64,000 nucleotides of DNA from Escherichia phage mio (MN850631.1); one strand, 5' to 3'; positions 52,169 through 61,795 are shown, counted from the stretch's first letter. Numbers and translations: made by a program. The notes: generated by a model from the letters alone, not told the origin.

Positions 52169-52244
52169 TGGAGAATCCGAAGGGACTCGAACCCTTATAA
52201 ACCTGTTTTGCAGACAGGCACATATCCATTTCTGTCACGGATTC
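52169..52244 (-). tRNA. tRNA-Cys (anticodon GCA)
   Basis: 76 nt, hand-folded cloverleaf; acceptor GAATCCG/CGGATTC, anticodon loop CTGCAAA, T-arm GGGTTCGAGTCCC, encoded CCA. Confidence 0.7.
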
Positions 52245-52248
52245 AAAT

Positions 52249-52341
52249 TGGAGGAAGATACCAGACTTGAACTGGTACACCGATTTCTCAGCTACTGGCA
52301 GTTTAGCAAACTGCTCCCTTACCTTTTAGGGTTAATCTTCC
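52249..52341 (-). tRNA. tRNA-Ser (anticodon GCU), type II
   Basis: 93 nt; acceptor GGAAGAT/ATCTTCC, anticodon loop TTGCTAA, long variable arm, encoded CCA. Confidence 0.6.
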
Positions 52342-52342
52342 A

Positions 52343-53077
52343 TTATTTCTGTAATGCGCTCTTCATTTCTGGTGTTGCAATAGTATCAATCACACCAGTT
52401 TTACAAGCATCATCAAACCAGTCTGGTAAGATACCTGCTAAGAACCCATTGATATTCGTTTTAAGGTACTCTGCAATAAGGGCAGCTTCTTCTTCAATCA
52501 TCTGCACAACTTCATCTGCATAAGCTGTAATCTTTGAGATACCTTCATTAATCTTACTAACAGCCTGATTAGCTAAATCAGAAACAGTATCAAGACCCTT
52601 ATCAATAGCGTCTTGTAAGTCACTTAACACACCATTAACACTATCTAGTGTGCTGTTAATCATGTCAATAGCTTTTTGACCATATTCTGTAGCAACACCC
52701 ATAATACCACTGAATGGTGTACAACCAACTTGTTCTCCTGCTGCACCCATAACATTGGAATAACCCTTTGCTACCTGCATACGTGATGAAAACTCATCAA
52801 TAGATTTTTGACCATAGTCTGTTAGGGTCTTAGTAGTTGCTGTAGTGCTTGTCAGACTTGTTGTAAAGCTGTTTAGAAGGACTGTTGTAAGTCCAGCAGC
52901 AACAAGTTTCTCCTGCATTGTAGGGTCTGTTACAGAGCTAATAGAGCTTACAAGTGATGTAGAGGCAGCTACGGTTCCACCGAGAACTGCTGCACCAGTA
53001 ATAAGTGGGTTAGAAAACCCTTTACCGGTTTTTAAGAGATTAAAAATCTCCTTACCTTGTTCTGTCATCTCTTTCAT
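52343..53077 (-). CDS. hypothetical protein embedded in the tRNA array
   Basis: ORF 52343..53140 trimmed to internal ATG 53077 because the upstream part overlaps tRNA-Phe; Thr/Ser/Ala-rich. Confidence 0.35.
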   Translation of the reverse strand: MKEMTEQGKEIFNLLKTGKGFSNPLITGAAVLGGTVAASTSLVSSISSVTDPTMQEKLVAAGLTTVLLNSFTTSLTSTTATTKTLTDYGQKSIDEFSSRMQVAKGYSNVMGAAGEQVGCTPFSGIMGVATEYGQKAIDMINSTLDSVNGVLSDLQDAIDKGLDTVSDLANQAVSKINEGISKITAYADEVVQMIEEEAALIAEYLKTNINGFLAGILPDWFDDACKTGVIDTIATPEMKSALQK

Positions 53078-53093
53078 TAAGCACCTTTGAAAT

Positions 53094-53169
53094 TGGTAGT
53101 CCAGTGGGATTTGAACCCTCTTCTCATGTTTTTCAGACACGCGCTTTAACCATATAAGCTACTTGGACT
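53094..53169 (-). tRNA. tRNA-Phe (anticodon GAA)
   Basis: 76 nt; anticodon stem CGTGT/ACATG, loop CTGAAAA; T-loop GGTTCAAATCC; CCA encoded. Confidence 0.6.
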
Positions 53170-53175
53170 ATAAAT

Positions 53176-53251
53176 TGGGGTGACCTACGGGAGTCGAACC
53201 CGTATAGACCATGTTCACAGCATGGGTCATTGCCATTTATGATAAGGCCAC
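53176..53251 (-). tRNA. tRNA-His (anticodon GUG)
   Basis: 76 nt; anticodon stem CCATG/CATGG, loop CTGTGAA; T-loop GGTTCGACTCC; CCA encoded. Confidence 0.7.
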
Positions 53252-53282
53252 ATTTAAGGACTCTCGTAAGAACCCTTAGAAG

Positions 53283-53358
53283 TGGCAGCGGCATAAGGAT
53301 TTGAACCTTAATAGGACAGCTTCAGAGACTGCTGCATTGCCAGTTATGCTATACCGCT
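53283..53358 (-). tRNA. tRNA-Gln (anticodon CUG)
   Basis: 76 nt; D-stem GCAT/ATGC, anticodon loop CTCTGAA, T-stem TAAGG/CCTTA; CCA encoded. Confidence 0.55.
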
Positions 53359-53363
53359 AAATT

Positions 53364-53434
53364 TGGTACTCCATATCGGATTCGAACCGATACATAACAC
53401 AGATTTTAAGTCTGGCCTCTCTGCCAATTGGAGT
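53364..53434 (-). tRNA. tRNA, anticodon UAA (Leu-type anticodon on a short class-I scaffold)
   Basis: 71 nt; T-arm ATCGG-TTCGAAT-CCGAT, anticodon loop CTTAAAA, no long variable arm, A at discriminator; atypical. Confidence 0.4.
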
Positions 53435-53444
53435 AATGGAGCAT

Positions 53445-53519
53445 TGGCGGGGGATGTTGGAATTGAACCAACTTCTTCGATTTCAAAGACCGAGGTTTTA
53501 ACCTTGTAAACTAATCCCC
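53445..53519 (-). tRNA. tRNA-Gln (anticodon UUG)
   Basis: 75 nt; anticodon stem TCGGT/ATCGA, loop CTTTGAA; T-arm GTTGG-TTCAATT-CCAAC; acceptor has two mismatches. Confidence 0.5.
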
Positions 53520-53528
53520 TTTAAATCT

Positions 53529-54086
53529 TTACTTTCTCAGTGGATGAATAAAGAATGCCAACATAACTCTTTCCCTTGAGAATGCTCTTTCTTCTGGGAC
53601 AACACTTTTTAGTTTCCATCCAACATAAATTCTCCAGTAAAACTGTTTACCAAAGACTTTAATTGATGGGATAAAAGCGAATAATCCCCAAGCATTACTG
53701 TTCCACATTAGGAGATAACCAGTCTGATTATCTTCAGGGTCAGAACTTACGTTGATATTACCTTTCCACTTAGTAACATCTTTTACATCTCTTCCTAACA
53801 CATGGTAAGAGAAGTTATAAGCTTTGTTTCTCCAGAGCCATCCAACTCTCTGCAAATAGACACCCAGCTTACCAATCTTTCTAATCTTAGCCCATCTTTT
53901 AACGTGGCCTTCGTCACCATCAATCGGGTTGTCGTAGGTTTCCATCCATCTGAATCCAAAAGGTAGGTGTCCTTTCTTCTCACTGTAGAATGGAACTACG
54001 AAAGGTGCTAAGATGACTGCTAGGGTTGCTGCAAATGGCTCTAGTAAAGCTAGGAAAATCCATGAAGCATACTTCAAATATCTCAT
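53529..54086 (-). CDS. hypothetical membrane protein embedded in the tRNA array
   Basis: 185 aa; N-terminal hydrophobic segment WIFLALLEPFAATLAVILAPFVVPF, Trp/Lys/Arg-rich remainder. Confidence 0.35.
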   Translation of the reverse strand: MRYLKYASWIFLALLEPFAATLAVILAPFVVPFYSEKKGHLPFGFRWMETYDNPIDGDEGHVKRWAKIRKIGKLGVYLQRVGWLWRNKAYNFSYHVLGRDVKDVTKWKGNINVSSDPEDNQTGYLLMWNSNAWGLFAFIPSIKVFGKQFYWRIYVGWKLKSVVPEERAFSRERVMLAFFIHPLRK

Positions 54087-54105
54087 CTAAATAGCCTCTT
54101 AAAAT

Positions 54106-54183
54106 TGGTGTTCCAAGACGGATTCGAACCGTCACTAATACAAGGTTTGAGCTTGCATCCTCTGCCAATTGGGATACTGGAAC
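54106..54183 (-). tRNA. tRNA, anticodon CAA (Leu-type anticodon on class-I scaffold)
   Basis: 78 nt; T-arm GACGG-TTCGAAT-CCGTC, anticodon loop CTCAAAC with extended stem; short variable region; atypical. Confidence 0.4.
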
Positions 54184-54184
54184 A

Positions 54185-54259
54185 TGGTACTCACTAAAGG
54201 ACTTGAACCTTTTTCTTCATCTTGTAAGGGTGATGTTTTACCATATAAACTAAGCGAGT
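54185..54259 (-). tRNA. tRNA-Val (anticodon UAC)
   Basis: 75 nt; D-stem GTTT/AAAC, anticodon loop CTTACAA, T-arm AAAGG-TTCAAGT-CCTTT; CCA encoded. Confidence 0.65.
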
Positions 54260-54354
54260 GTGAAAGAGGTCTGAAGTTGTGCCGCTAACTCAACTCCGTG
54301 GAATTTGTTACGGTCTTCAGTTGACACAAGCGGTCTTTCACTTGACCTCTGAAT

Positions 54355-54431
54355 TGGTGCTGCTCACAGGACTCGAACCTGCATTTCCATCCTTACAAGG
54401 GATGTGTAATAGCCAATTATACGAAAGCAGC
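54355..54431 (-). tRNA. tRNA-Thr (anticodon UGU)
   Basis: 77 nt; anticodon stem CATCC/GGATG, loop CTTGTAA; T-loop GGTTCGAGTCC; CCA encoded. Confidence 0.65.
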
Positions 54432-54438
54432 ATTAATT

Positions 54439-54513
54439 TGGAGCATCCAGAGGGAATCGAACCCTCAACCTCAGTTTGGAAGACTGTAATTTTCCCGTTT
54501 AAACTATGGATGC
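54439..54513 (-). tRNA. tRNA-Gly (anticodon UCC)
   Basis: 75 nt; anticodon stem CAGT/ACTG, loop CTTCCAA; T-arm GAGGG-TTCGATT-CCCTC; CCA encoded. Confidence 0.65.
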
Positions 54514-54519
54514 ACTAAT

Positions 54520-54595
54520 TGGTGGAGAAGCAGGGAATTGAACCCTGTACTTAAGTTTGCAAAACTTATGTTTTAACCATGTAAACTACATCCCC
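54520..54595 (-). tRNA. tRNA-Ala (anticodon UGC)
   Basis: 76 nt; anticodon loop TTTGCAA; G3-U70 wobble in acceptor stem (classic Ala identity element); CCA encoded. Confidence 0.65.
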
Positions 54596-54601
54596 GATAT
54601 C

Positions 54602-54677
54602 TGGTACAGGTGGAGGGAATTGAACCCATCGTCTTACTGATTAAGAGTCAGCCGCATAACCATTTTGCTACACCTGC
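54602..54677 (-). tRNA. tRNA-Lys (anticodon CUU)
   Basis: 76 nt; anticodon loop CTCTTAA; near-duplicate scaffold of the UUU Lys tRNA at 56281-56356; CCA encoded. Confidence 0.55.
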
Positions 54678-54684
54678 ATTAATT

Positions 54685-54762
54685 TGGTAGGAGACAAGGG
54701 ATTCGAACCCTCAAACATCTCGTTCTAAGCGAGATAGGTTTACCAATTACCATCAATCTCCC
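54685..54762 (-). tRNA. tRNA, anticodon UAG (Leu-type anticodon on class-I scaffold)
   Basis: 78 nt; anticodon stem TCTCG/CGAGA, loop CTTAGAA; T-loop GGTTCGAATCC; atypical D region. Confidence 0.4.
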
Positions 54763-54843
54763 ATTAAATCTTTTTAGAGAACTTCTAAGAACCTAAGCAA
54801 CAAGGTTCCACAACAAGCTGTAATAACCTTAGAAGCCCTCTAA

Positions 54844-54864
54844 AAAGACCTAAAAAAGGTCTTT
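54844..54864 (-). terminator. terminator-like hairpin inside the tRNA array
   Basis: AAGACC-(T)6A-GGTCTT hairpin; U-run follows on the minus strand; weak. Confidence 0.3.
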
Positions 54865-55018
54865 GCATAGTCTTGTTTAATCCGGTGACTAGAACCTTTG
54901 GAGAGCTTGATATTATCTCTTCTCCGTGACACCTACTAGGTGCTTTATTAGTGTGTACGACAACACACGAGGGATACCAAAGCAACATCCTAATGAAGCT
55001 TGGCTTTAAATCTTATTA

Positions 55019-55108
55019 GGCGGTAAGTAAAGGAGTCGAACCCTCACCGTATCTCTACAGTGGCAACAGTTTTCAAGACTGTTTGGCTGCCATTAGCCGC
55101 TACCTACC
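55019..55108 (-). tRNA. tRNA-Ser (anticodon UGA), type II
   Basis: About 88 nt; anticodon stem ACAGT/ACTGT, loop CTTGAAA; long variable arm; 3' CCA not encoded (CCT). Confidence 0.55.
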
Positions 55109-55121
55109 CCTAATAAGACTT

Positions 55122-55204
55122 TGGCATGGGACGGAGGAGTTGAACCCCTTTGAAACGGTTTTGGAGGCCGTTGCTCATGCCTTAGAGTCTTAACATCGTC
55201 CCAC
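55122..55204 (-). tRNA. tRNA-Trp-like (anticodon CCA), atypical 83 nt
   Basis: Acceptor GTGGGAC/GTCCCAT, anticodon loop CTCCAAA, T-loop GGGTTCAACTCC; enlarged D region. Confidence 0.4.
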
Positions 55205-55341
55205 ACTATAATTCGAAGCTTACCGTATTATCTCAACACTGTAAAGCCCCTTCTCAGATTATTTACATGTTCTGGAAAACATGAGATACAGACCACCTCC
55301 CTACAGGAAGACCCGCTTAGGTCGTCTAAGTAATCTGCTAA

Positions 55342-55689
55342 CTAATACTTTGCATGTCTTACCCTATGGCAATTTGAACATAGCAAAACACATTTGTCAA
55401 GTTCATCTTTTAGCTCTTGAGAGAACTTAAGGCTTTTCCTATGACCAATGTTAAAATCTTTATCTGAAGGATTCAAATGATGGAAGTCATACACTGCTGG
55501 ATGATACTTTTTACCACAATCATGACAAACCCCACCTTTGTACTCAATAGCTGAGAGTTTAAGTGCTCTTTGTCTTTCTATGGTTTGCTCATTAACACAC
55601 TTTTTACAGTATGAATGAGTTCTTCTACCATCTTTCATGTAGAAATCATTTTCATCCTTGCTAAGTTTGCACCTAATACAAGTTTTCAT
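55342..55689 (-). CDS. HNH homing endonuclease
   Basis: ORF 55342..55740 trimmed to ATG 55689 (upstream part overlaps a tRNA); CxxC ... HHLNP ... CSNCHRVRH HNH/zinc motif. Confidence 0.6.
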   Translation of the reverse strand: MKTCIRCKLSKDENDFYMKDGRRTHSYCKKCVNEQTIERQRALKLSAIEYKGGVCHDCGKKYHPAVYDFHHLNPSDKDFNIGHRKSLKFSQELKDELDKCVLLCSNCHRVRHAKY

Positions 55690-55703
55690 GATTTCTCCAA
55701 AAT

Positions 55704-55785
55704 TGGTCGAGGCGGCAGGACTCGAACCCGCATACTCCACTTACTCGGTTAACGGCGGTTTAGAAGACCGCTGAGATACGCCCCG
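55704..55785 (-). tRNA. tRNA-Arg-like (anticodon-type loop CTTCTAA = UCU), structurally anomalous
   Basis: 82 nt; T-arm GCGGG-TTCGAGT-CCTGC and acceptor CGGGGCG/CGCCTCG, but the UCU hairpin sits where the D-arm should be, followed by 23 unassigned nt. Confidence 0.35.
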
Positions 55786-56078
55786 TAATTATCTTTAAAG
55801 ACTCTCTTAGAAAGCCCTTAAAGATGCCCACCTTATTAATCATACCGTGGGCTAGTACGCCAAATTCTTTGATGAGGGATTGGAAGACCTCACTGGTGTT
55901 TAGCCTATCAAGCTACTGCCAGAAAAACATTGTCGTTTGCATTTATTTTAAATTTGCAAAATAGACGCTACGCAACGAAAACTATTCAGAATATGTACAA
56001 CAAATTTCCCCACATTGTGTTACGTCTAACGCTCATGTATTGGTGTTTGAATTATACATATTATGAAGTATTTTAGTT

Positions 56079-56107
56079 ACTATAAAGTGGTCACATCTCA
56101 ATGTCAA
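56079..56107 (-). promoter_or_regulatory. sigma70-like promoter driving minus-strand transcription into the tRNA array
   Basis: Minus-strand TTGACA (rc of 56102-56107), 17-nt spacer, TATAGT (rc of 56079-56084). Confidence 0.5.
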
Positions 56108-56122
56108 CAACTTTATTGAAAT

Positions 56123-56198
56123 TGGTACTGGTAGGTGGAATCGAACCACCGATATTCCCTTATCAGGGGAGTGTTATAACCTTCTTAACTATACCAGC
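56123..56198 (-). tRNA. tRNA-Ile (anticodon GAU)
   Basis: 76 nt; anticodon loop CTGATAA, T-arm GGTGG-TTCGATT-CCACC; CCA encoded. Confidence 0.65.
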
Positions 56199-56199
56199 T

Positions 56200-56276
56200 T
56201 GGAGGTTCAGATGGGAATCGAACCCACATTCATAGGGCTTATGAAACCCCTGCATTACCTTATCTGCGACTGAACC
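56200..56276 (-). tRNA. tRNA-Met (anticodon CAU; three G-C pairs in anticodon stem, initiator-like)
   Basis: 77 nt; anticodon stem GGGGT/GCCCT with loop TTCATAA; T-loop GGGTTCGATTCCC; CCA encoded. Confidence 0.55.
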
Positions 56277-56280
56277 ATAT

Positions 56281-56356
56281 TGGTAGAAGTGGAGGGATTC
56301 GAACCCATCGCCTGTCAGATTAAAAGTCTGCCGCATCACCATTCTGCTACACTTCC
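56281..56356 (-). tRNA. tRNA-Lys (anticodon UUU)
   Basis: 76 nt; anticodon loop CTTTTAA; scaffold nearly identical to the CUU Lys tRNA at 54602-54677. Confidence 0.6.
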
Positions 56357-56361
56357 ATTAA

Positions 56362-56504
56362 ATTATCTTTGTAGATAAGCTACCCAGACTTGCTTAAGGT
56401 CTGTAGCGATGTGCATTGTTGGGTTTAAATCTAGAATTTACCCTTTCACCCTTTGTGGTCGCATACTCACAGGTAAGCTTAATAACTTATCTACAAAGAT
56501 AATT
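56362..56504 (-). ncRNA. structured element with 19-bp perfect terminal inverted repeat (candidate ncRNA or mobile-element remnant)
   Basis: AATTATCTTTGTAGATAAG (56362-56380) and its exact reverse complement CTTATCTACAAAGATAATT (56486-56504) enclose about 105 nt with internal hairpins; no T-loop; strand unknown. Confidence 0.35.
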
Positions 56505-56505
56505 A

Positions 56506-56636
56506 CCAGACCGTTGTTTATCATCTTAAGTGCTACCATTACACCAACTCGACCTCTGCCGAGTGAAGGAATCGAACCTTCGCCTTTTCTTTACCGAGAA
56601 ATAGATTGTTTAAGCTTTGCTGTAAACGGTCTTCTG
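56506..56636 (-). ncRNA. circularly permuted tRNA-like element (candidate Y-RNA-like ncRNA or permuted tRNA gene)
   Basis: In minus-strand sense: variable-arm hairpin TTTCT-CGGTA-AGAAA, T-arm GAAGG-TTCGATT-CCTTC, acceptor-like hairpin ACTCGGC-AGAG-GTCGAGT, D-arm-like GTG-TAATGGTAG-CAC, then TTAAGAT pairing back to ATCT and an 8-bp outer helix AGACCGTT/AACGGTCT. Confidence 0.45.
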
Positions 56637-56810
56637 TAAATTTGTTGAGCCAGACCAAGTTTTAAATTTTTCAAAATTAAATTGGCTTGAAATTTTAAGT
56701 AACTTGCTGTATTTGGTCTTCTGCTCCTTTAAAGAATACTCGTAAGAACTCTTTAAGGGAGGGGCTAAATAGCCCTCTCAAAACATCATTTTGAAATACT
56801 TATTATAATT

Positions 56811-56888
56811 TGGCGGTTACGAAGGGACTCGAACCCTCATCATCTCCCGTGACAGGGGAGTATTTTAACCATATTAAACTACATAACC
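56811..56888 (-). tRNA. tRNA-Asp (anticodon GUC)
   Basis: 78 nt; anticodon stem CTCCC/GGGAG, loop CTGTCAC; T-loop GGGTTCGAGTCCC; CCA encoded. Confidence 0.65.
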
Positions 56889-56894
56889 TTCATT

Positions 56895-56982
56895 TGGTGT
56901 GCCGTGTAGGAGTCGAACCTACCGAGTCTCAATGACAAGGGATTTACAGTCCCCACCGCTACCATCTACGGGATAACGACAC
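56895..56982 (-). tRNA. tRNA-Tyr (anticodon GUA), type II
   Basis: 88 nt; anticodon loop CTGTAAA, long variable arm, T-arm GTAGG-TTCGACT-CCTAC; CCA encoded. Confidence 0.6.
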
Positions 56983-56991
56983 ATTTAAATT

Positions 56992-57068
56992 TGGCGGTTA
57001 GTCAGGGATTCGAACCCTGTGCCATTCGCTTAACAGGCGACCGCACATACCTTATGTGCTTCCTAACC
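56992..57068 (-). tRNA. tRNA-Asn (anticodon GUU)
   Basis: 77 nt; D-stem GCAC/GTGC, anticodon loop CTGTTAA, T-loop GGGTTCGAATCCC; CCA encoded. Confidence 0.65.
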
Positions 57069-57145
57069 TTAATACATTGCCAGACCGTGTTTTTTCTTTT
57101 ATCCGCAAAAAGTAGTTTGTTGCTGCATACAGTCTTCTGCAAAAT

Positions 57146-57222
57146 TGGAGGCGGGTGCAGGAGTCGAACCTGCCGATACCATGCTAATGAGACATGTGAG
57201 ACGCCCTTTCTCTATACCCGCA
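57146..57222 (-). tRNA. tRNA with CAU anticodon (Met or Ile2-type)
   Basis: 77 nt; anticodon stem CATGT/GCATG, loop CTCATTA; 1:72 mismatch in acceptor; T-arm GCAGG-TTCGACT-CCTGC. Confidence 0.5.
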
Positions 57223-57313
57223 ATTCTTAATGACCAGACCAAATCTCTTCTTTGTCCGATTTACCTTCAGATGAATAAGATTAAGTTTGCTGTAATTGGT
57301 CTTCTGTCAAAAC

Positions 57314-57391
57314 TGGCGTTCCAGAAGGGATTTGAACCCTCAGATATCCACTTTGAAAGAGTGGTGACTTTACCATTTTGTCTACTGGAAC
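57314..57391 (-). tRNA. tRNA-Glu (anticodon UUC)
   Basis: 78 nt; anticodon stem CCACT/AGTGG, loop CTTTCAA; T-loop GGGTTCAAATCCC; CCA encoded. Confidence 0.65.
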
Positions 57392-57398
57392 ATTAATT

Positions 57399-57476
57399 TG
57401 GTCTCTGTTGGAGGACTTGAACCTCCGGCCTTACCGCCCCAAACGGAACGCTCTACCAAGCTGAGCTAAACAGAGA
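57399..57476 (-). tRNA. tRNA-Pro (anticodon UGG)
   Basis: About 78 nt; canonical D-arm AGCTCAGCTTGGTAGAGC, anticodon loop TTTGGGG, T-arm GGAGG-TTCAAGT-CCTCC; CCA encoded. Confidence 0.7.
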
Positions 57477-57593
57477 TAAACTTTTCAAACTCTATGTAAC
57501 CACTTTAACATTATTTTTTAGTGATTGTCAAGAACTTTTTTAAAATATTTTTCAGTATCTTAGAAAAGCTCTCATTTCGTTTCTATGTAGAAC

Positions 57594-57622
57594 ATATTAA
57601 AGGGTATTAAACACATTGTCAA
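57594..57622 (-). promoter_or_regulatory. sigma70-like promoter at the head of the tRNA array
   Basis: Minus-strand TTGACA (rc of 57617-57622), 17-nt spacer, TAATAT (rc of 57594-57599); overlaps a 7-bp hairpin GGGTATT/AATACCC just downstream of the Rsr-like gene stop. Confidence 0.5.
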
Positions 57623-57640
57623 TACCCTTTTTAAAACTTT

Positions 57641-59056
57641 TTACCAGATATAACGGTCAATCATTACTGCTTTGAGCATTACGCTGATTGGGTCAAACTT
57701 CTCACCACCAAGCAGAGCTTTTAAAGTGGCTGGAGAGAAACCAGATACCATTGCTACACCGTTATCCTTAACAGACACTTCGCAAGTCCCATTACGGTTT
57801 GCTAAGTACCAGAATACCAGTTGTGGCATCTCATATCCAGATTTTTTGTACTTACTCTGAATTGCTTCAAAGTTTGTACGACCATTAGCTCCATCAACCT
57901 GATTGAACTCCATATCAGAGAAGATGATAAGCTTACTTGGCATATCTTTCTGAGTCAAGTTGTTTCTTTTACCTACCTCAAGAATGCGGTCAAAAGCTGC
58001 TTGTAAGTTAGTTGAGCCATATTCAACGTGTCGCATCACCTGACGATGACGGTTTTGTAAATCACCACTCAGTTCGATGAAGTGAGGGTTTGTTGAATAA
58101 ACCATTAACTCGTTCTTAAAGCAACCTGTATTGCGTTCTGCTACATACAATGCAAGTGATACACCAATATCAAGAGCAGTAATTGAACCAAAATTCACCC
58201 AAGACATTGAGCTTGAGACATCAGTCATACACAAGATGTTTTCACCCTCTGCCATCCAGTTTGGTAGTGCTTTCCACTGCTCATTAGCAACATCTGCATT
58301 ACCATGCTTAACAGATTTAATCACATCGTATGGGTAAACAGCACCAGCGTTAATCTTAGACTCACCCTTTGAGAGTGATTCGATGTAAGCTTTGTAACGT
58401 TCTCCATCTTTACGGTTAAAGAGCTTTTGGTAACGTGCAGCAGCGAGTGAAGGAATCTTGCTGTAGTCAATCTTACCAAACTCATTAGCAGAGATTTTTT
58501 GCTCAACCGTATCAGACAGTGCAGATAACAGTGTGCGGTACTCTTTCTCGCTTAAGTTTGCAAACTTACAGAAACGTTTTACAAACTGTTTGTGGCGTGG
58601 TTTTACTCGTGGCAGCCACTTAGCTGCTAAACCTGCTGTTGCAGGGTCTAGCAATGCTGCTTCTAAATGCTTGAAGGCATCTGTCTCAAAACGAGTACCT
58701 ACGAAGATTTTGAAGTCATCAAAACGACCAAGTTCTGCAATCTTATCCATAATGCGAAGAACCTGTGTAGGCTCTAAAACTTTATCTTCAATTGCTTGAA
58801 GCAAGACAGTTCTGAAGGCTTTACGCTCACCCATACCTTCTCGTACATCTCGCATATGCAGTAAAATACGAACTGCGACATCAACATCCTCACGCAAAGC
58901 TTTGTAGAACAGGTCTGGTAAGATTTCTACATTGCTACGGCTTGAACCAGCAGCTTTGTAAAAGTCTACAAGAGCAGACATTGATGAAGTATGGTTTACA
59001 GCACCATTTTCAGTTCGACCTGCATGAAGGTGCGCATGTTTAAATAATTCGCTCAT
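57641..59056 (-). CDS. Ro60/Rsr-like protein (TROVE-like N-terminal region + von Willebrand factor A domain)
   Basis: 471 aa; C-terminal vWA with MIDAS-type CMTDVSSSMSW plus IIFSDMEF, SKYKKS and GFSPATLKAL, which parallel segments I recall from the Ro60 vWA domain (DVSASM, IVFTDNE, REYRKK, GFDTGALDV); N-terminal 260 aa helical; memory-based comparison only. Confidence 0.5.
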   Translation of the reverse strand: MSELFKHAHLHAGRTENGAVNHTSSMSALVDFYKAAGSSRSNVEILPDLFYKALREDVDVAVRILLHMRDVREGMGERKAFRTVLLQAIEDKVLEPTQVLRIMDKIAELGRFDDFKIFVGTRFETDAFKHLEAALLDPATAGLAAKWLPRVKPRHKQFVKRFCKFANLSEKEYRTLLSALSDTVEQKISANEFGKIDYSKIPSLAAARYQKLFNRKDGERYKAYIESLSKGESKINAGAVYPYDVIKSVKHGNADVANEQWKALPNWMAEGENILCMTDVSSSMSWVNFGSITALDIGVSLALYVAERNTGCFKNELMVYSTNPHFIELSGDLQNRHRQVMRHVEYGSTNLQAAFDRILEVGKRNNLTQKDMPSKLIIFSDMEFNQVDGANGRTNFEAIQSKYKKSGYEMPQLVFWYLANRNGTCEVSVKDNGVAMVSGFSPATLKALLGGEKFDPISVMLKAVMIDRYIW

Positions 59057-59137
59057 ATTTTACTCTCTTCTCTCATCTGTTGTTTGATGTGACAGACTTT
59101 AGAGCAACTTTGTAGAGTCTGTCAACATCTTTTAAAA

Positions 59138-59509
59138 TTATTTTTTGAGAGTCGCTACAGCAGAGAACGTTGGTTTGTTATCTGTCTGAGACTGACCACC
59201 ATTATCAGGTGTCTTCTTAGTGTCTGATGCAATCGCTTTCATCTCACCTGCTGAGTGAGTCATGATAGTTTTACCAGCTTCCATCATCGACTTCAGGTTT
59301 ACATCGTCAGTCGTCAAACCGAACTCTGCAAGCTTAGCAGCGTCCCTTGTAACAACCGCTTCAAACAACTTTGCAGCAAACTCAGCAGAATTATCAATGG
59401 TCAGTTGAGCTTTTACGAGTGAACTTTTGTTACGAGAGCCTTTTGGTCTTCCAGATGGGTTTCCAGACTGGCCTTTTTTAAACTGGCCTTTGTTTGTTCT
59501 GTTTTTCAT
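59138..59509 (-). CDS. hypothetical protein with basic N-terminus
   Basis: 123 aa; N-terminal KKGQSGNPSGRPKGSRNK. Confidence 0.35.
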   Translation of the reverse strand: MKNRTNKGQFKKGQSGNPSGRPKGSRNKSSLVKAQLTIDNSAEFAAKLFEAVVTRDAAKLAEFGLTTDDVNLKSMMEAGKTIMTHSAGEMKAIASDTKKTPDNGGQSQTDNKPTFSAVATLKK

Positions 59510-59636: not shown

Positions 59637-59660
59637 CACCTTGTCAAGTACCTTGTCAAC
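59637..59660. promoter_or_regulatory. conserved divergent-region box CACCTTGTCAAGTACCTTGTCAAC
   Basis: 23/24 identical to the box at 18907-18930; followed by plus-strand TTGACT (59685-59690) + 17 nt + TACCAT. Confidence 0.4.
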
Positions 59661-59901
59661 AACTTTTTTAACTTGCAATAGTTCTTGACTTGTTGTATGG
59701 ATTACTGTACCATCTTACTTAAAGCTGTAGGTCTGCCTTGTTCTACAAAGGAGACTTAATGAGAAAATCAAATAAACCGAAGAAAGGTAAGAATACCAAT
59801 CACTGTAAGGAATCAAAAAGGGTAGAGTTAATCTACTATTCATCCTCTGAAATTGGTCTGTACCTGTTCTTTCAAAATTACAGAAGACAAGAGGATTATC
59901 T

Positions 59902-60910: not shown

Positions 60911-61795
60911 ATGATTAAAGCAAAGACTTACCCAGACTTCAAAGAGTTTGTGAAGGGCTTCATTGCAAACGTAAAAGCTGGTAAGAGATATGATTTTAGA
61001 ACATATCAAGAGGCTATTTTACCACTCACCTATAGTTCGTATTGGCCTGAAGCTGATATTGCAGAAGTTGAGGAGTTTGACTACAAACCAGACTACAAAG
61101 TTCCATTTAGTGATGATTTGCTTTACAGCGTTGGTGCTCAAATGAGAACTTCTGACTTCTTCATGGACTTACAATATGCAATTATCAATGGTAAAGACGT
61201 TGACACAGTGTATTGTGAATGGTTGGCAAGAGTTAAGCCGTTCTCAATGTTGAATGCTAAGCTGAAGGATGCTATTAAGCCACCAGCAATTACTCAGCAA
61301 CCAACAGGCCAAACAGTCAATGAGGGTGGCACACTTACTTTAAGTGTTCTAGCAACTAACGCCACTGGATATCAGTGGAAGAAGGATGGTGAGGACATCC
61401 ACAGTGCCACTTCTGCAACTTACACAAAACAATCCGTAGCACCTTCTGACGCTGGTTCATACACTTGTGTTGTATCTGGAGAGGGTGGAACAAGTGTCAC
61501 CTCAGATGCAGCAACGGTTACTGTTAACGCACTGCCTGTGATTACACAGCAACCTTCTAGCCAGACCATTAATGAAGGTGGAAACATCAGTCTATCAGTG
61601 ACTGCAACAGGTGCAACAGGTTATCAGTGGAAGAAGGGTGAAGAAGTCATCCCAGACGCAACTGCTGCAACTTACACCAAAGAAGGTGCAACCGCTGCTG
61701 ATGCAGGAAGCTACACCTGTGTAGTGACTGGCGCAGGTGGCTCTGTAACATCTAATGCGGCAACAGTTACAGTTAACCCAGCAGAGGAGGCATAA
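60911..61795 (+). CDS. protein with two tandem Ig-like (Big/I-set-type) domains
   Basis: 294 aa; two about 90-aa repeats ITQQP(T/S)(G/S)QT(V/I)NEGG...ATGYQWKK...A(T/S)YTK...DAGSYTCVV...AATVTVN. Confidence 0.45.
   Translation: MIKAKTYPDFKEFVKGFIANVKAGKRYDFRTYQEAILPLTYSSYWPEADIAEVEEFDYKPDYKVPFSDDLLYSVGAQMRTSDFFMDLQYAIINGKDVDTVYCEWLARVKPFSMLNAKLKDAIKPPAITQQPTGQTVNEGGTLTLSVLATNATGYQWKKDGEDIHSATSATYTKQSVAPSDAGSYTCVVSGEGGTSVTSDAATVTVNALPVITQQPSSQTINEGGNISLSVTATGATGYQWKKGEEVIPDATAATYTKEGATAADAGSYTCVVTGAGGSVTSNAATVTVNPAEEA

What the first reader, a model, noticed from the sequence alone, without database searches (positions are those of the whole stretch)
57641..59056. Ro60/Rsr-like TROVE+vWA protein encoded at the head of the tRNA array
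The 471-aa product ends in a von Willebrand A domain whose motifs (MTDVSSSMSW ... LMVYSTNP ... YGSTNLQ ... KLIIFSDMEF ... SKYKKSGYEMPQLV ... MVSGFSPATLKAL) line up with the C-terminal vWA of Ro60 as I remember it, and its N-terminal 260 aa is helical like a TROVE domain. Ro60/Rsr proteins bind Y RNAs, and bacterial Y RNAs are tRNA-like and encoded next to rsr. This gene is the first in a minus-strand unit that runs into 26 tRNAs and several non-tRNA structured RNAs.
Basis: partly seen in the sequence, partly recalled or inferred. Interest (0 to 1): 0.8.

Follow-up and report, generated by a model that had tools for sequence, protein, structure and literature searches.

The report
Phage Ro60-like protein with Y-like RNAs
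This Felix O1-type phage gene encodes a very divergent relative of the Ro60 RNA-binding ring protein (already noted in a 2024 preprint as an anti-defence factor), and I found that it is accompanied here and in many unrelated phages by a previously undescribed family of small Y-RNA-like RNAs, one of them with a tRNA-like module.

Summary
The ORF is real (57641-59056, minus strand, 471 aa). The window is a Felixounavirus. The protein is 97% identical to Bas63 gp130, which a 2024 preprint calls structurally Ro60-like and shows to counter the Ppl defence system.

New here is a set of four paralogous RNA elements inside the tRNA array, 330-1140 nt downstream on the same strand. Each has a basal stem followed by a conserved CAGCAA motif. 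Element D (56503-56639) also carries a T arm, a closed 7-bp acceptor hairpin and a D arm. That is the layout of bacterial YrlA Y RNAs.

The same RNA family lies beside DUF2828 genes in at least 61 of 75 distant phage loci, always on the gene strand. It shows strong covariation, and a blind reverse search confirmed the link.

Protein-RNA binding is inferred, not shown. The protein-level claim is already known. The RNA partner family appears to be new.

The parts
57641..59056 (-). Gene for the 471-aa Ro60-like protein. It has an N-terminal helical domain (DUF2828, residues about 1-265) and a C-terminal vWA/MIDAS domain (DUF7788, about 274-455). It is the orthologue of Bas63 gp130.
59096..59125 (-). 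Sigma-70-like promoter match (TTGACA, 18-nt spacer, TAAAGT) just upstream of the gene.
   Evidence: This is a consensus match only.
59138..59509 (-). Upstream 123-aa DUF5681 ORF. It is the true first gene of the minus-strand block. It is not conserved next to DUF2828 genes in other phage lineages.
57599..57630 (-). Hairpin of 12 pairs starting 11 nt after the stop codon. It overlaps the -35 region of the next promoter-like site.
57502..57622 (-). Two tandem sigma-70-like promoter matches (57622-57594 and 57531-57502) between the gene and tRNA-Pro. They would drive the tRNA and Y-like RNA array independently of the gene.
   Evidence: repeat family D6
57231..57309 (-). Y-like RNA element A, short form, 79 nt. 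Layout: outer stem UGAC/GUCA, internal loop AGA/G, stem AGACCAA/UUGGUCU, then UUACAGCAA. It lies between tRNA-Glu and tRNA-Met.
57077..57142 (-). Y-like RNA element B, short form, 66 nt. Layout: UUGC/GCAA, AGA/G, AGACUGU/ACGGUCU, then AUGCAGCAA. It lies between tRNA-Met and tRNA-Asn.
56647..56726 (-). Y-like RNA element C, short form, 80 nt. Layout: GAGC/GCUC, AGA/G, AGACCAA/UUGGUCU, then AUACAGCAA.
56503..56639 (-). Y-like RNA element D, long form, 137 nt. It has the same basal stem and UUACAGCAA motif, followed by a V hairpin, the T arm GAAGGUUCGAUUCCUUC, a closed 7-bp acceptor hairpin ACUCGGC-AGAG-GUCGAGU, and the D arm GGUG-UAAUGGUAG-CACU. This is the YrlA-type permuted tRNA-like layout.
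   Evidence: (95 bits, E 3.8e-16)
52169..57475 (-). The tRNA array. It holds 24 ARAGORN tRNAs plus two tRNA-like sequences, interspersed with DUF7217, DUF7338 and weak-HNH ORFs. Elements A-D are embedded in it.

Best explanation
The gene encodes a highly divergent Ro60-type protein. A helical TROVE-like repeat domain is packed against a vWA domain with an intact MIDAS site. I propose that it assembles with small phage-encoded Y-like RNAs. Four of these (A-D) are encoded 330-1140 nt downstream, inside the tRNA array. They would be released from the tRNA precursor by the ordinary tRNA-processing nucleases. All four share a basal stem with an AGA/G internal loop and a single-stranded CAGCAA motif next to its 5' strand, which is the candidate protein-binding site. 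One of them (D) adds a tRNA-like elbow made of T arm, closed acceptor hairpin and D arm, as in bacterial YrlA.

By analogy with Rsr-YrlA-PNPase and with the phiLo phage Ro60-Yrl-PNPase complex, the RNP would dock onto or blunt a host RNA-decay or defence factor during infection. The one demonstrated phenotype of the orthologue is relief from the Ppl defence system.

Shown here: the fold match, the existence and covariation of the RNA family, and its two-way genomic linkage with the protein family. Shown by others: the anti-Ppl phenotype. Inferred: protein-RNA binding, ring closure, processing of the RNAs, and the target of the RNP.
For: Protein.
- The Foldseek top 10 hits are all Ro60 entries.
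- BFVD also returns 'Ro-like RNA binding protein' and 'TROVE domain-containing protein' of phages at E 1.2e-8.
- hhalign against a TROVE/Ro60 profile gives E 1.1e-5.
- The MIDAS motif is invariant.

RNA in the window.
- Four same-strand paralogues have compensatory changes in both stems.
- Element D folds into a basal stem, V hairpin, T arm, acceptor hairpin and D arm.

RNA family.
- The covariance model R1 finds non-seed members at up to 91.8 bits. All 143 hits at E<=1 in 1.33 Mb lie on the gene strand.
- On 24 long forms, 94.6% of cells are paired against 60.1% when shuffled and 36-46% when the partner is slid. 20 of 23 pairs show double changes.
- The 5' signature AGR-N7-C[AC]GCA[AG] occurs 124 times on the gene strand and 15 times on the opposite strand. 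73 of the 124 have the 7-bp 3' complement followed by G, against 2 of 124 for control 7-mers.
- 34 of those 73 lie within 300 nt of the gene and none lies inside it.
- At least 61 of 75 distant loci carry an element.

Reverse test. Among 120 blind pattern matches in IMG/VR, a DUF2828 gene is present for 9 of 18 stem-validated matches, all on the same strand. It is present for only 1 of 102 unvalidated matches.

Link to YrlA.
- The Rfam YrlA model hits two of the elements at 39.2 and 36.7 bits. It gives 32.5 bits for the bona fide Bxz1 YrlA.
- R1 in turn hits the Bxz1 YrlA site.

No protein neighbour is conserved across lineages.

Genetics. Deleting g130 sensitises Bas63 to Ppl, and complementation rescues it.
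Against: - There is no Pfam TROVE or vWA_Ro60 hit.
- hhalign does not cover the N-terminal 230 residues.
- The helical domain is about 90 residues shorter than in Ro60, and I could not inspect coordinates to confirm a closed ring.
- The Rfam YrlA model does not hit element D even in a 181-nt search. No element reaches YrlA's gathering score. The canonical GNCGAAN0-1G motif is replaced by CAGCAA or CCGCAA.
- gp130 alone, expressed from a plasmid or inserted into T7, rescues T7 on Ppl. The anti-Ppl activity therefore does not need the phage's own RNAs.
- Nothing here shows that A-D accumulate as RNAs or bind the protein.
- About 14 of 75 loci showed no element.
Confidence: 0.6

Rival explanations
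1. The protein acts without any dedicated RNA partner. It would be a direct protein inhibitor of the Ppl ATPase-PHP defence protein, for example through its MIDAS site. The neighbouring RNA elements would have an unrelated role.
Against: This does not explain why a specific structured RNA family is the only near-universal neighbour of the gene. That holds across phages sharing only 39-48% protein identity, always on the same strand and often within 300 nt. A Ro60 fold could also use host RNAs in the T7 experiment.
Confidence: 0.2
2. The stem-CAGCAA elements are cis-acting signals rather than trans-acting Y RNAs. They could be operators through which the protein autoregulates its mRNA. They could also be processing or stability determinants of the tRNA precursor, with the protein acting as a chaperone or quality-control factor for pre-tRNAs.
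For: Many elements directly abut the 5' or 3' end of the gene: 18 lie within 300 nt upstream and 16 within 300 nt downstream. In Felix-type phages they sit 4-9 nt from tRNA ends. tRNAs lie within 1 kb of the gene in 18 of 75 distant loci, and all 297 tRNAs found are co-oriented with it. Cellular Ro60 is known to bind misfolded non-coding RNA precursors (PMC4201824).
Against: Elements occur in tandem copies and up to 8 kb from the gene. Many loci with elements have no tRNA at all. The long form conserves a complete tRNA-like elbow with covariation, which a simple operator would not need.
Confidence: 0.15
3. The protein is a generic vWA protein, such as a MoxR or chelatase-type cochaperone or an assembly factor. 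On this view its resemblance to Ro60 is superficial.
For: There is no TROVE hit. vWA domains are common in phages and giant viruses.
Against: The match to Ro60 extends over 391 residues, including about 210 of the helical domain. It beats all isolated vWA domains by about 10 Z units. No AAA+ partner is conserved next to the gene.
Confidence: 0.03

Closest known systems
Bas63 (Escherichia phage JohannRWettstein) gp130, PhageMaP preprint PMC11482910
   Same: It is the orthologue: 97% identity over all 471 aa. It occupies the same position after a DUF5681-type ORF and before tRNA-Pro, and has the same four RNA elements. The preprint reports it as structurally Ro60-like and as a counter to the Ppl defence system. 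It speculates that some annotated tRNAs are Y RNAs.
   Different: The preprint names no RNA. The candidates found here are not annotated tRNAs. They are unannotated spacers, and in public records small ORFs are annotated antisense to two of them.
Thermus phage phiLo Ro60 with Yrl1/Yrl2 (PMC12135203; PDB 9KOP, 9L5Y)
   Different: phiLo Ro60 is a canonical TROVE protein and its RNAs carry the CGAA motif. The protein here fails the TROVE model, and its RNAs carry CAGCAA and, in one form, a tRNA-like module.
Bacterial and mycobacteriophage Rsr/Ro60 with YrlA and YrlB (Chen et al. 2014, PMC4201824; Rfam RF02553)
   Same: The RNA is encoded within 4 kb on the same strand. Its 5' and 3' ends form a stem, with a short conserved motif on the 5' side. 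The tRNA-like domain runs in the order T arm, closed acceptor stem, D arm (UAGCUCA..GGUAGAGC). There are two or more RNAs per genome, and only one has the tRNA module. The 7-bp acceptor matches M. smegmatis YrlA, which RNase P cleaves.
   Different: The protein is in different Pfam families. Bxz1 gp220 hits TROVE at 9e-50 and vWA_Ro60 at 4e-54, whereas this protein hits neither. The RNAs score only 0-39 bits against YrlA, whose gathering score is 69. The motif differs. A long linker with a V hairpin separates the basal stem from the tRNA-like module.
Pfam DUF2828 (PF11443) / DUF7788 (PF25043); PHROG 850 'RNA-binding protein'
   Same: It is a full-length member: DUF7788 at 3e-43, DUF2828 at 2e-29 and phrog_850 at 2e-183.
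   Different: These families carry no experimentally based function. The PHROG name is an annotation only.

Membership tests
Ro60 / Rsr (TROVE + vWA_Ro60) | Significant match to Pfam TROVE (PF05731) | tested here: not met
   No TROVE hit at E<=1. The positive control Bxz1 gp220 gives 9.4e-50.
Ro60 / Rsr (TROVE + vWA_Ro60) | Significant match to Pfam vWA_Ro60 (PF25045) | tested here: not met
   The protein hits DUF7788 instead. Profile-profile comparison with a Ro60 profile nevertheless aligns residues 235-443 with Ro60 316-539 at 82% probability and E 1.1e-5.
Ro60 / Rsr (TROVE + vWA_Ro60) | Two-domain architecture: N-terminal alpha-helical repeat domain followed by a vWA domain with a MIDAS motif | tested here: met
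   There are 17 helices up to residue 263, then an alpha/beta domain at 274-449. D279, S281, S283, T349 and D381 are invariant.
Ro60 / Rsr (TROVE + vWA_Ro60) | Fold match to solved Ro60 across both domains | tested here: met
Ro60 / Rsr (TROVE + vWA_Ro60) | Closed ring with a central cavity that admits single-stranded RNA ends | not testable with these tools
The helical domain is about 90 residues shorter than in Ro60.
Ro60 / Rsr (TROVE + vWA_Ro60) | Binds Y RNA or misfolded RNA | not testable with these tools
   This needs RIP or EMSA.
Ro60 / Rsr (TROVE + vWA_Ro60) | Y-type RNA encoded nearby on the same strand | tested here: met
   Elements A-D lie 330-1140 nt downstream. The family-wide linkage is shown.
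YrlA RNA (Rfam RF02553) | Reaches the Rfam gathering score (69 bits) | tested here: not met
   There is no hit on element D. The relatives L021 and L082 score 39.2 and 36.7 bits. The true Bxz1 YrlA itself scores only 32.5 bits.
YrlA RNA (Rfam RF02553) | T arm, closed acceptor stem and D arm in that order, enclosed by a stem formed by the 5' and 3' ends | tested here: met
   Covariation of all four helices on 24 sequences is.
YrlA RNA (Rfam RF02553) | GNCGAAN0-1G motif near the 5' end | tested here: not met
   The motif is replaced by [CU]N-C[AC]GCAA at a fixed 10 nt from the start of the stem.
DUF2828/DUF7788 (Pfam), PHROG 850 | Match above the curated cut-offs | tested here: met
   148.1 and 103.3 bits against cut-offs of 27.1 and 29. 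phrog_850 scores 611 bits over its full length.
Anti-Ppl counter-defence protein (Bas63 gp130) | Orthology to the tested protein | tested here: met
   97% identity with the same synteny.
Anti-Ppl counter-defence protein (Bas63 gp130) | Relieves Ppl restriction | not testable with these tools
   Reported for gp130 in PMC11482910. It has not been tested for this allele.

The most novel reading that the evidence does not exclude
DUF2828/DUF7788 proteins form a family of about 8,850 clusters at 50% identity in phages, with relatives in giant viruses. Together with a hitherto undescribed 'stem-CAGCAA' RNA family, they would constitute a second, widespread viral lineage of Ro60/Y-RNA-type ribonucleoproteins. 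The RNA family has short forms and tRNA-like long forms that appear to derive from a tRNA 3' end fused to the next tRNA's 5' end. In tRNA-rich phages the RNAs would be produced by the tRNA-processing machinery, and the RNP would act against host RNA-decay or defence factors such as Ppl.
Probability: 0.5. Interest if true: 0.8.

Novelty: new variant of a known kind. Interest (0 to 1): 0.66.

Why it matters
Ro60/Y-RNA particles are known from animals, about 5% of bacteria and a few phages that carry canonical TROVE proteins. Their function in phage infection is barely understood. If the DUF2828/DUF7788 proteins are Ro60-type RNPs with their own RNA family, the number of viral Ro-like systems grows by thousands. 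That would also give a large 'domain of unknown function' a concrete, testable ligand. The RNA candidate that the Bas63 study postulated but did not identify would now be pinned down. A defined genetic phenotype, relief of Ppl defence, becomes available for dissecting what a Ro-like RNP does. The work also flags unannotated RNA genes in about 250 sequenced Felixounavirus genomes, some of which are used in phage therapy and typing. In those genomes spurious antisense ORFs are currently annotated over two of the elements.

Tried and rejected
- Sequence searches that found nothing: single-sequence phmmer against the PDB and NCBIfam.
- Literature on DUF2828 gave only incidental plant hits.
- Rfam at gathering and at E-value thresholds found no Y_RNA or YrlA in the window. 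The only YrlA hit (19.6 bits) straddles two ordinary tRNAs.
- The strict Felix-type pattern (AGA-AGAC...GUCU-G) finds exactly four copies per Felixounavirus and none elsewhere. It was too specific for family detection.
- A permissive regex requiring only a 7-bp complement near C[ACT]GCA had a high background: 367 on the gene strand, 266 on the opposite strand and about 255 in controls. I abandoned it for the signature-first test.
- hhalign against a single Ro60 sequence aligned only the MIDAS segment, at 55% probability. I repeated it with a profile.
- Clustering of neighbouring proteins found no conserved partner. There is no RtcB, RNA ligase, PNPase or AAA+ ATPase.
- I guessed accession MZ501111 for Bas63; it was the wrong phage. 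The first stretch of Bxz1 that I fetched missed gp220.
- Literature searches for Felixounavirus transcriptomes and for the mechanism of Ppl gave nothing usable.
- The AFDB fold library was unavailable.
- I considered that element D is a circularly permuted tRNA gene or a pair of tRNA fragments. I rejected this for three reasons: 8-25 nt and 20-40 nt linkers separate the D and T arms from the basal stem; there is no anticodon loop; and the enclosing stem and CAGCAA motif are shared with forms that lack any tRNA part.
- I considered terminators. I rejected this because there is no U tract, the linkers are AU-rich, and covariation is strand-specific.

Full report
1. The observation.
The window is a Felixounavirus. 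The gene is 96-97% identical in DNA to about 190 Felix O1-like phages of Escherichia, Salmonella, Shigella and Citrobacter, and 250 phage records carry it. The surrounding 10 kb is collinear with Alf5 and Felix O1.

The annotated neighbourhood runs as follows, all on the window's minus strand: a DUF5681 ORF, this gene, a tRNA array interrupted by DUF7217, DUF7338 and HNH-type ORFs, then terminase and portal. ARAGORN finds 24 tRNAs. Rfam adds one tRNA-like hit, and there is one more tRNA-like fold.

The gene is therefore second in the block, not first. Promoter-like TTGACA sites lie both before it and between it and tRNA-Pro.

2. What the protein is.
Pfam assigns DUF2828 (residues 172-264, 1.8e-29) and DUF7788 (275-455, 3.1e-43). 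It gives no TROVE or vWA_Ro60 hit. PHROG 850, named 'RNA-binding protein', matches end to end.

The family is large. More than 2,000 90%-identity clusters share words with the query, and all listed hits have the same two domains. A profile search of 1.84 billion representatives finds 8,850 proteins at E<=1e-3 and 4,075 at E<=1e-30. In 38 diverse members the MIDAS residues D279, S281, S283, T349 and D381 are invariant. So are several Arg/Gly-rich N-terminal motifs, including R69-D70-x-R72-x-G74-x-G76-E77-R78.

An AlphaFold2 model built from that alignment is confident (pLDDT 89.4, pTM 0.88).
- Foldseek against the PDB returns only Ro60 entries in the top ten: Xenopus, human, Deinococcus Rsr and Thermus phage phiLo. 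Their E-values are 3.5e-8 to 5.7e-7, and isolated vWA domains start at 2.5e-3.
- BFVD adds phage proteins named 'Ro-like RNA binding protein' and 'TROVE domain-containing protein' at E 1.2e-8. It also shows close structural relatives in giant viruses.

At sequence level the family profile's only vWA-type PDB hits are Ro60, and they are not significant (E 0.66 and 1.4). A profile-profile comparison with 24 TROVE/Ro60 proteins aligns residues 235-443 with Ro60 316-539 at 82% probability and E 1.1e-5. That stretch covers the last TROVE helices and the whole vWA domain. The comparison does not reach the N-terminal 230 residues.

Conclusion: this is a genuine but very divergent Ro60-type protein that fails the curated TROVE model.

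3. What is already known.
Bas63 gp130 (MZ501086, bas63_0130) is 97% identical and occupies the same position. The PhageMaP preprint (PMC11482910) reports several things about it:
- Deleting g130 gives minute plaques on a Ppl-expressing host, and complementation rescues them.
- gp130 alone rescues T7 on Ppl, either from a plasmid or in place of T7 gene 4.3.
- gp130 is structurally similar to Ro60 and lies upstream of the tRNAs.
- Some annotated tRNAs might be Y RNAs.

Canonical phage Ro60 proteins with Y-like RNAs are known from mycobacteriophages (PMC4201824) and from Thermus phage phiLo (PMC12135203). I found no paper that links DUF2828 proteins to a specific RNA.

4. The RNA elements in the window.
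Folding the non-tRNA spacers and looking for repeats revealed four paralogous elements on the gene strand:
- A: 57309-57231
- B: 57142-57077
- C: 56726-56647
- D: 56639-56503

Each has the same layout. An outer 4-bp stem (UGAC/GUCA, UUGC/GCAA, GAGC/GCUC, UUAC/GUAA) is followed by an internal loop of AGA on the 5' side and G on the 3' side. Then comes a 7-8-bp stem (AGACCAA/UUGGUCU, AGACUGU/ACGGUCU, AGACCGU/ACGGUCU). Immediately after its 5' strand lies a conserved (U/A)NCAGCAA. The differences between the copies are compensatory.

D additionally contains a V hairpin, a canonical T arm (GAAGGUUCGAUUCCUUC), a 7-bp 'acceptor' closed by a 4-nt loop, and a D arm with the GG loop. This is the order found in the tRNA-like module of bacterial YrlA. 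RNAfold recovers this structure unaided.

A strict pattern finds exactly these four copies in every Felixounavirus locus examined, all on the gene strand. It finds none in 1.26 Mb of other phage DNA on either strand. A and B lie 4-9 nt from flanking tRNAs. If the spacers are transcribed, ordinary tRNA end-processing would release them.

5. The RNA family beyond Felix-type phages.
I fetched 75 loci encoding DUF2828 proteins that are only 39-48% identical to this one. A scan for 'T arm + 7 nt + short loop + complementary 7 nt' found same-strand elements in a dozen of them. ARAGORN does not call these tRNAs. Each is enclosed by a different 6-21-bp stem and carries the same CAGCAA or CCGCAA motif after the 5' strand.

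A covariance model built from 12 of them (R1) then found further full-length members at up to 91.8 bits. Several are immediately next to the gene: L011, L018, L028 and L031 upstream, L040 downstream. It also found many 50-75-nt 'short forms' directly after the gene in loci that have no tRNA at all. All 143 hits at E<=1 are on the gene strand.

On 24 long forms, 94.6% of cells pair. The figures are 60.1% after shuffling and 36-46% with slid partners. 186 cells show double changes against 54 expected, and 20 of 23 pairs in all four helices have compensatory changes. That alignment was fitted to the model, so I also ran a test that is not circular. The 5' signature AGR-N7-C[AC]GCA[AG] occurs 124 times on the gene strand and 15 times on the other strand. 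73 of the 124 have a 7-bp complement followed by G within 20-150 nt, against 2 of 124 for control 7-mers and 0 of 15 on the other strand.

Of these 73, 34 lie within 300 nt of the gene, 47 within 1 kb and none inside it. Variant stems starting with UGG add nine more loci, so at least 61 of 75 loci carry an element.

No protein neighbour is shared by more than 17 of the 76 loci. tRNAs lie within 1 kb in 18 of the 75 loci, and all 297 tRNAs found are co-oriented with the gene.

6. Reverse and cross checks.
A blind scan of IMG/VR for AAAGGNNNNNTTCAGCAAA returned 120 matches. 18 of them have the 3' complement. 9 of those 18 have a DUF2828 gene in the short stretch held, always on the same strand and 202-2393 nt away. 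Only 1 of the 102 matches without the complement has one.

Rfam's YrlA model was built on RNAs of canonical Ro60 loci. It hits my elements in L021 (39.2 bits, E 4e-5) and L082 (36.7 bits, full length) as the only non-tRNA, non-intron hits in 65 kb. That is more than it gives the bona fide Bxz1 YrlA (32.5 bits). All of these are below the gathering score of 69. Conversely, R1 hits the Bxz1 YrlA site at 26.9 bits. Element D itself is not hit by YrlA.

The loops that close the acceptor hairpin often retain NCCA. This suggests an origin from a tRNA 3' end joined to the next tRNA's 5' end. The 7-bp acceptor is the feature that makes M. smegmatis YrlA an RNase P substrate.

7. Mechanism and its status.
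Best supported: a Ro60-type protein that forms RNPs with these Y-like RNAs. By analogy with Rsr-YrlA-PNPase and phiLo Ro60-Yrl-PNPase, the RNP would engage a host RNA-decay or defence component. The known phenotype is relief of Ppl.

Shown here: the fold, the RNA structure and the genomic linkage. Shown by others: the Ppl phenotype. Inferred: binding, ring closure, RNA processing and the target.

The main counter-evidence is that gp130 alone works in T7. The RNAs are therefore not required for Ppl relief, or host RNAs can substitute.

Three rivals remain:
- an RNA-independent, MIDAS-mediated inhibitor of Ppl;
- cis-regulatory or processing elements, with the protein as a pre-tRNA quality-control factor;

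8. Verdict.
The protein-level insight is already in the literature. The identification of a conserved, covarying, strand-linked Y-like RNA family next to DUF2828/DUF7788 genes appears to be new. It turns a speculative remark in the preprint into specific, testable RNA genes: four in this window, including one YrlA-type tRNA mimic.

Noticed in passing
window 54763-54857 (-): A near-perfect hairpin of about 30 bp lies between tRNA-Ser(tga) and tRNA-Leu(tag). Its folding z-score is -4.86, and none of 200 shuffles folds as well. Its function is unknown; it could be a processing site or a terminator-like barrier.
   Followed up: no
window 54260-54354 (-): A 95-nt structured spacer between tRNA-Thr and tRNA-Val has z -2.7. 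It contains AGACCGU...ACGG like elements A-D but lacks the CAGCAA motif. It may be a decayed fifth copy or a different RNA.
   Followed up: partly
window 55109-55210 (-): A tRNA-like fold is not called by ARAGORN. It has a 10-bp acceptor-type stem, the T arm GGGGUUCAACUCCUC and an anticodon-like loop CUCCAAA (CCA would read Trp), with an aberrant D region. Rfam gives only a 23-bit tRNA-Sec match at 55128-55202.
   Followed up: partly
window 55704-55785 (-): A weak tRNA-like sequence scores 31.7 bits against Rfam tRNA. ARAGORN does not find it, and Bas63 annotates the equivalent as tRNA-Arg. It is overlapped by the 132-aa ORF 55342-55740, which has a marginal HNH match.
   Followed up: partly
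window 56409-56639 (+); L001:10363-10686; L003:20749-21023: Public records annotate small hypothetical ORFs antisense to RNA elements C and D (Alf5_ORF044c, bas63_0137 and bas63_0138). The window has a matching 76-aa plus-strand ORF. These are probably spurious calls over RNA genes.
   Followed up: partly
window 57524-57551, 57615-57642, 59640-59679, 56100-56127, 52661-52688: The promoter-like TTGACA sites share an extended upstream box, AAAA(G/A)TTnTTGACAAT on the transcribed strand (repeat family D6). This suggests a common early-promoter class on both sides of the divergent region near 59.6 kb.
   Followed up: no
window 52249-52341 (-): ARAGORN calls this 93-nt type-II tRNA Ser(gct). The equivalent Bas63 feature is annotated as tRNA-Arg (AGA).
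   Followed up: no
L021:15696-15922: A group I intron (Rfam 71.5 bits, above the gathering score) lies about 4 kb downstream of the DUF2828 gene in an unrelated 89-kb viral contig.
   Followed up: no
BFVD matches: Close structural relatives of this protein occur in giant eukaryotic viruses: Pithovirus, Marseillevirus, Cafeteria roenbergensis virus and Mimiviridae, with TM-scores up to 0.87. The family is therefore not confined to phages. I did not examine whether those genes also have a stem-CAGCAA RNA nearby.
   Followed up: no
window 60911-61795 (+): A 294-aa ORF carries two tandem repeats that look Ig-like (..QQP.GQT.NEGG.L.LSV.ATNATGYQWKK.GE..). It corresponds in position to the gene annotated 'immunoglobulin-like domain protein' in Bas63.
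   Followed up: no
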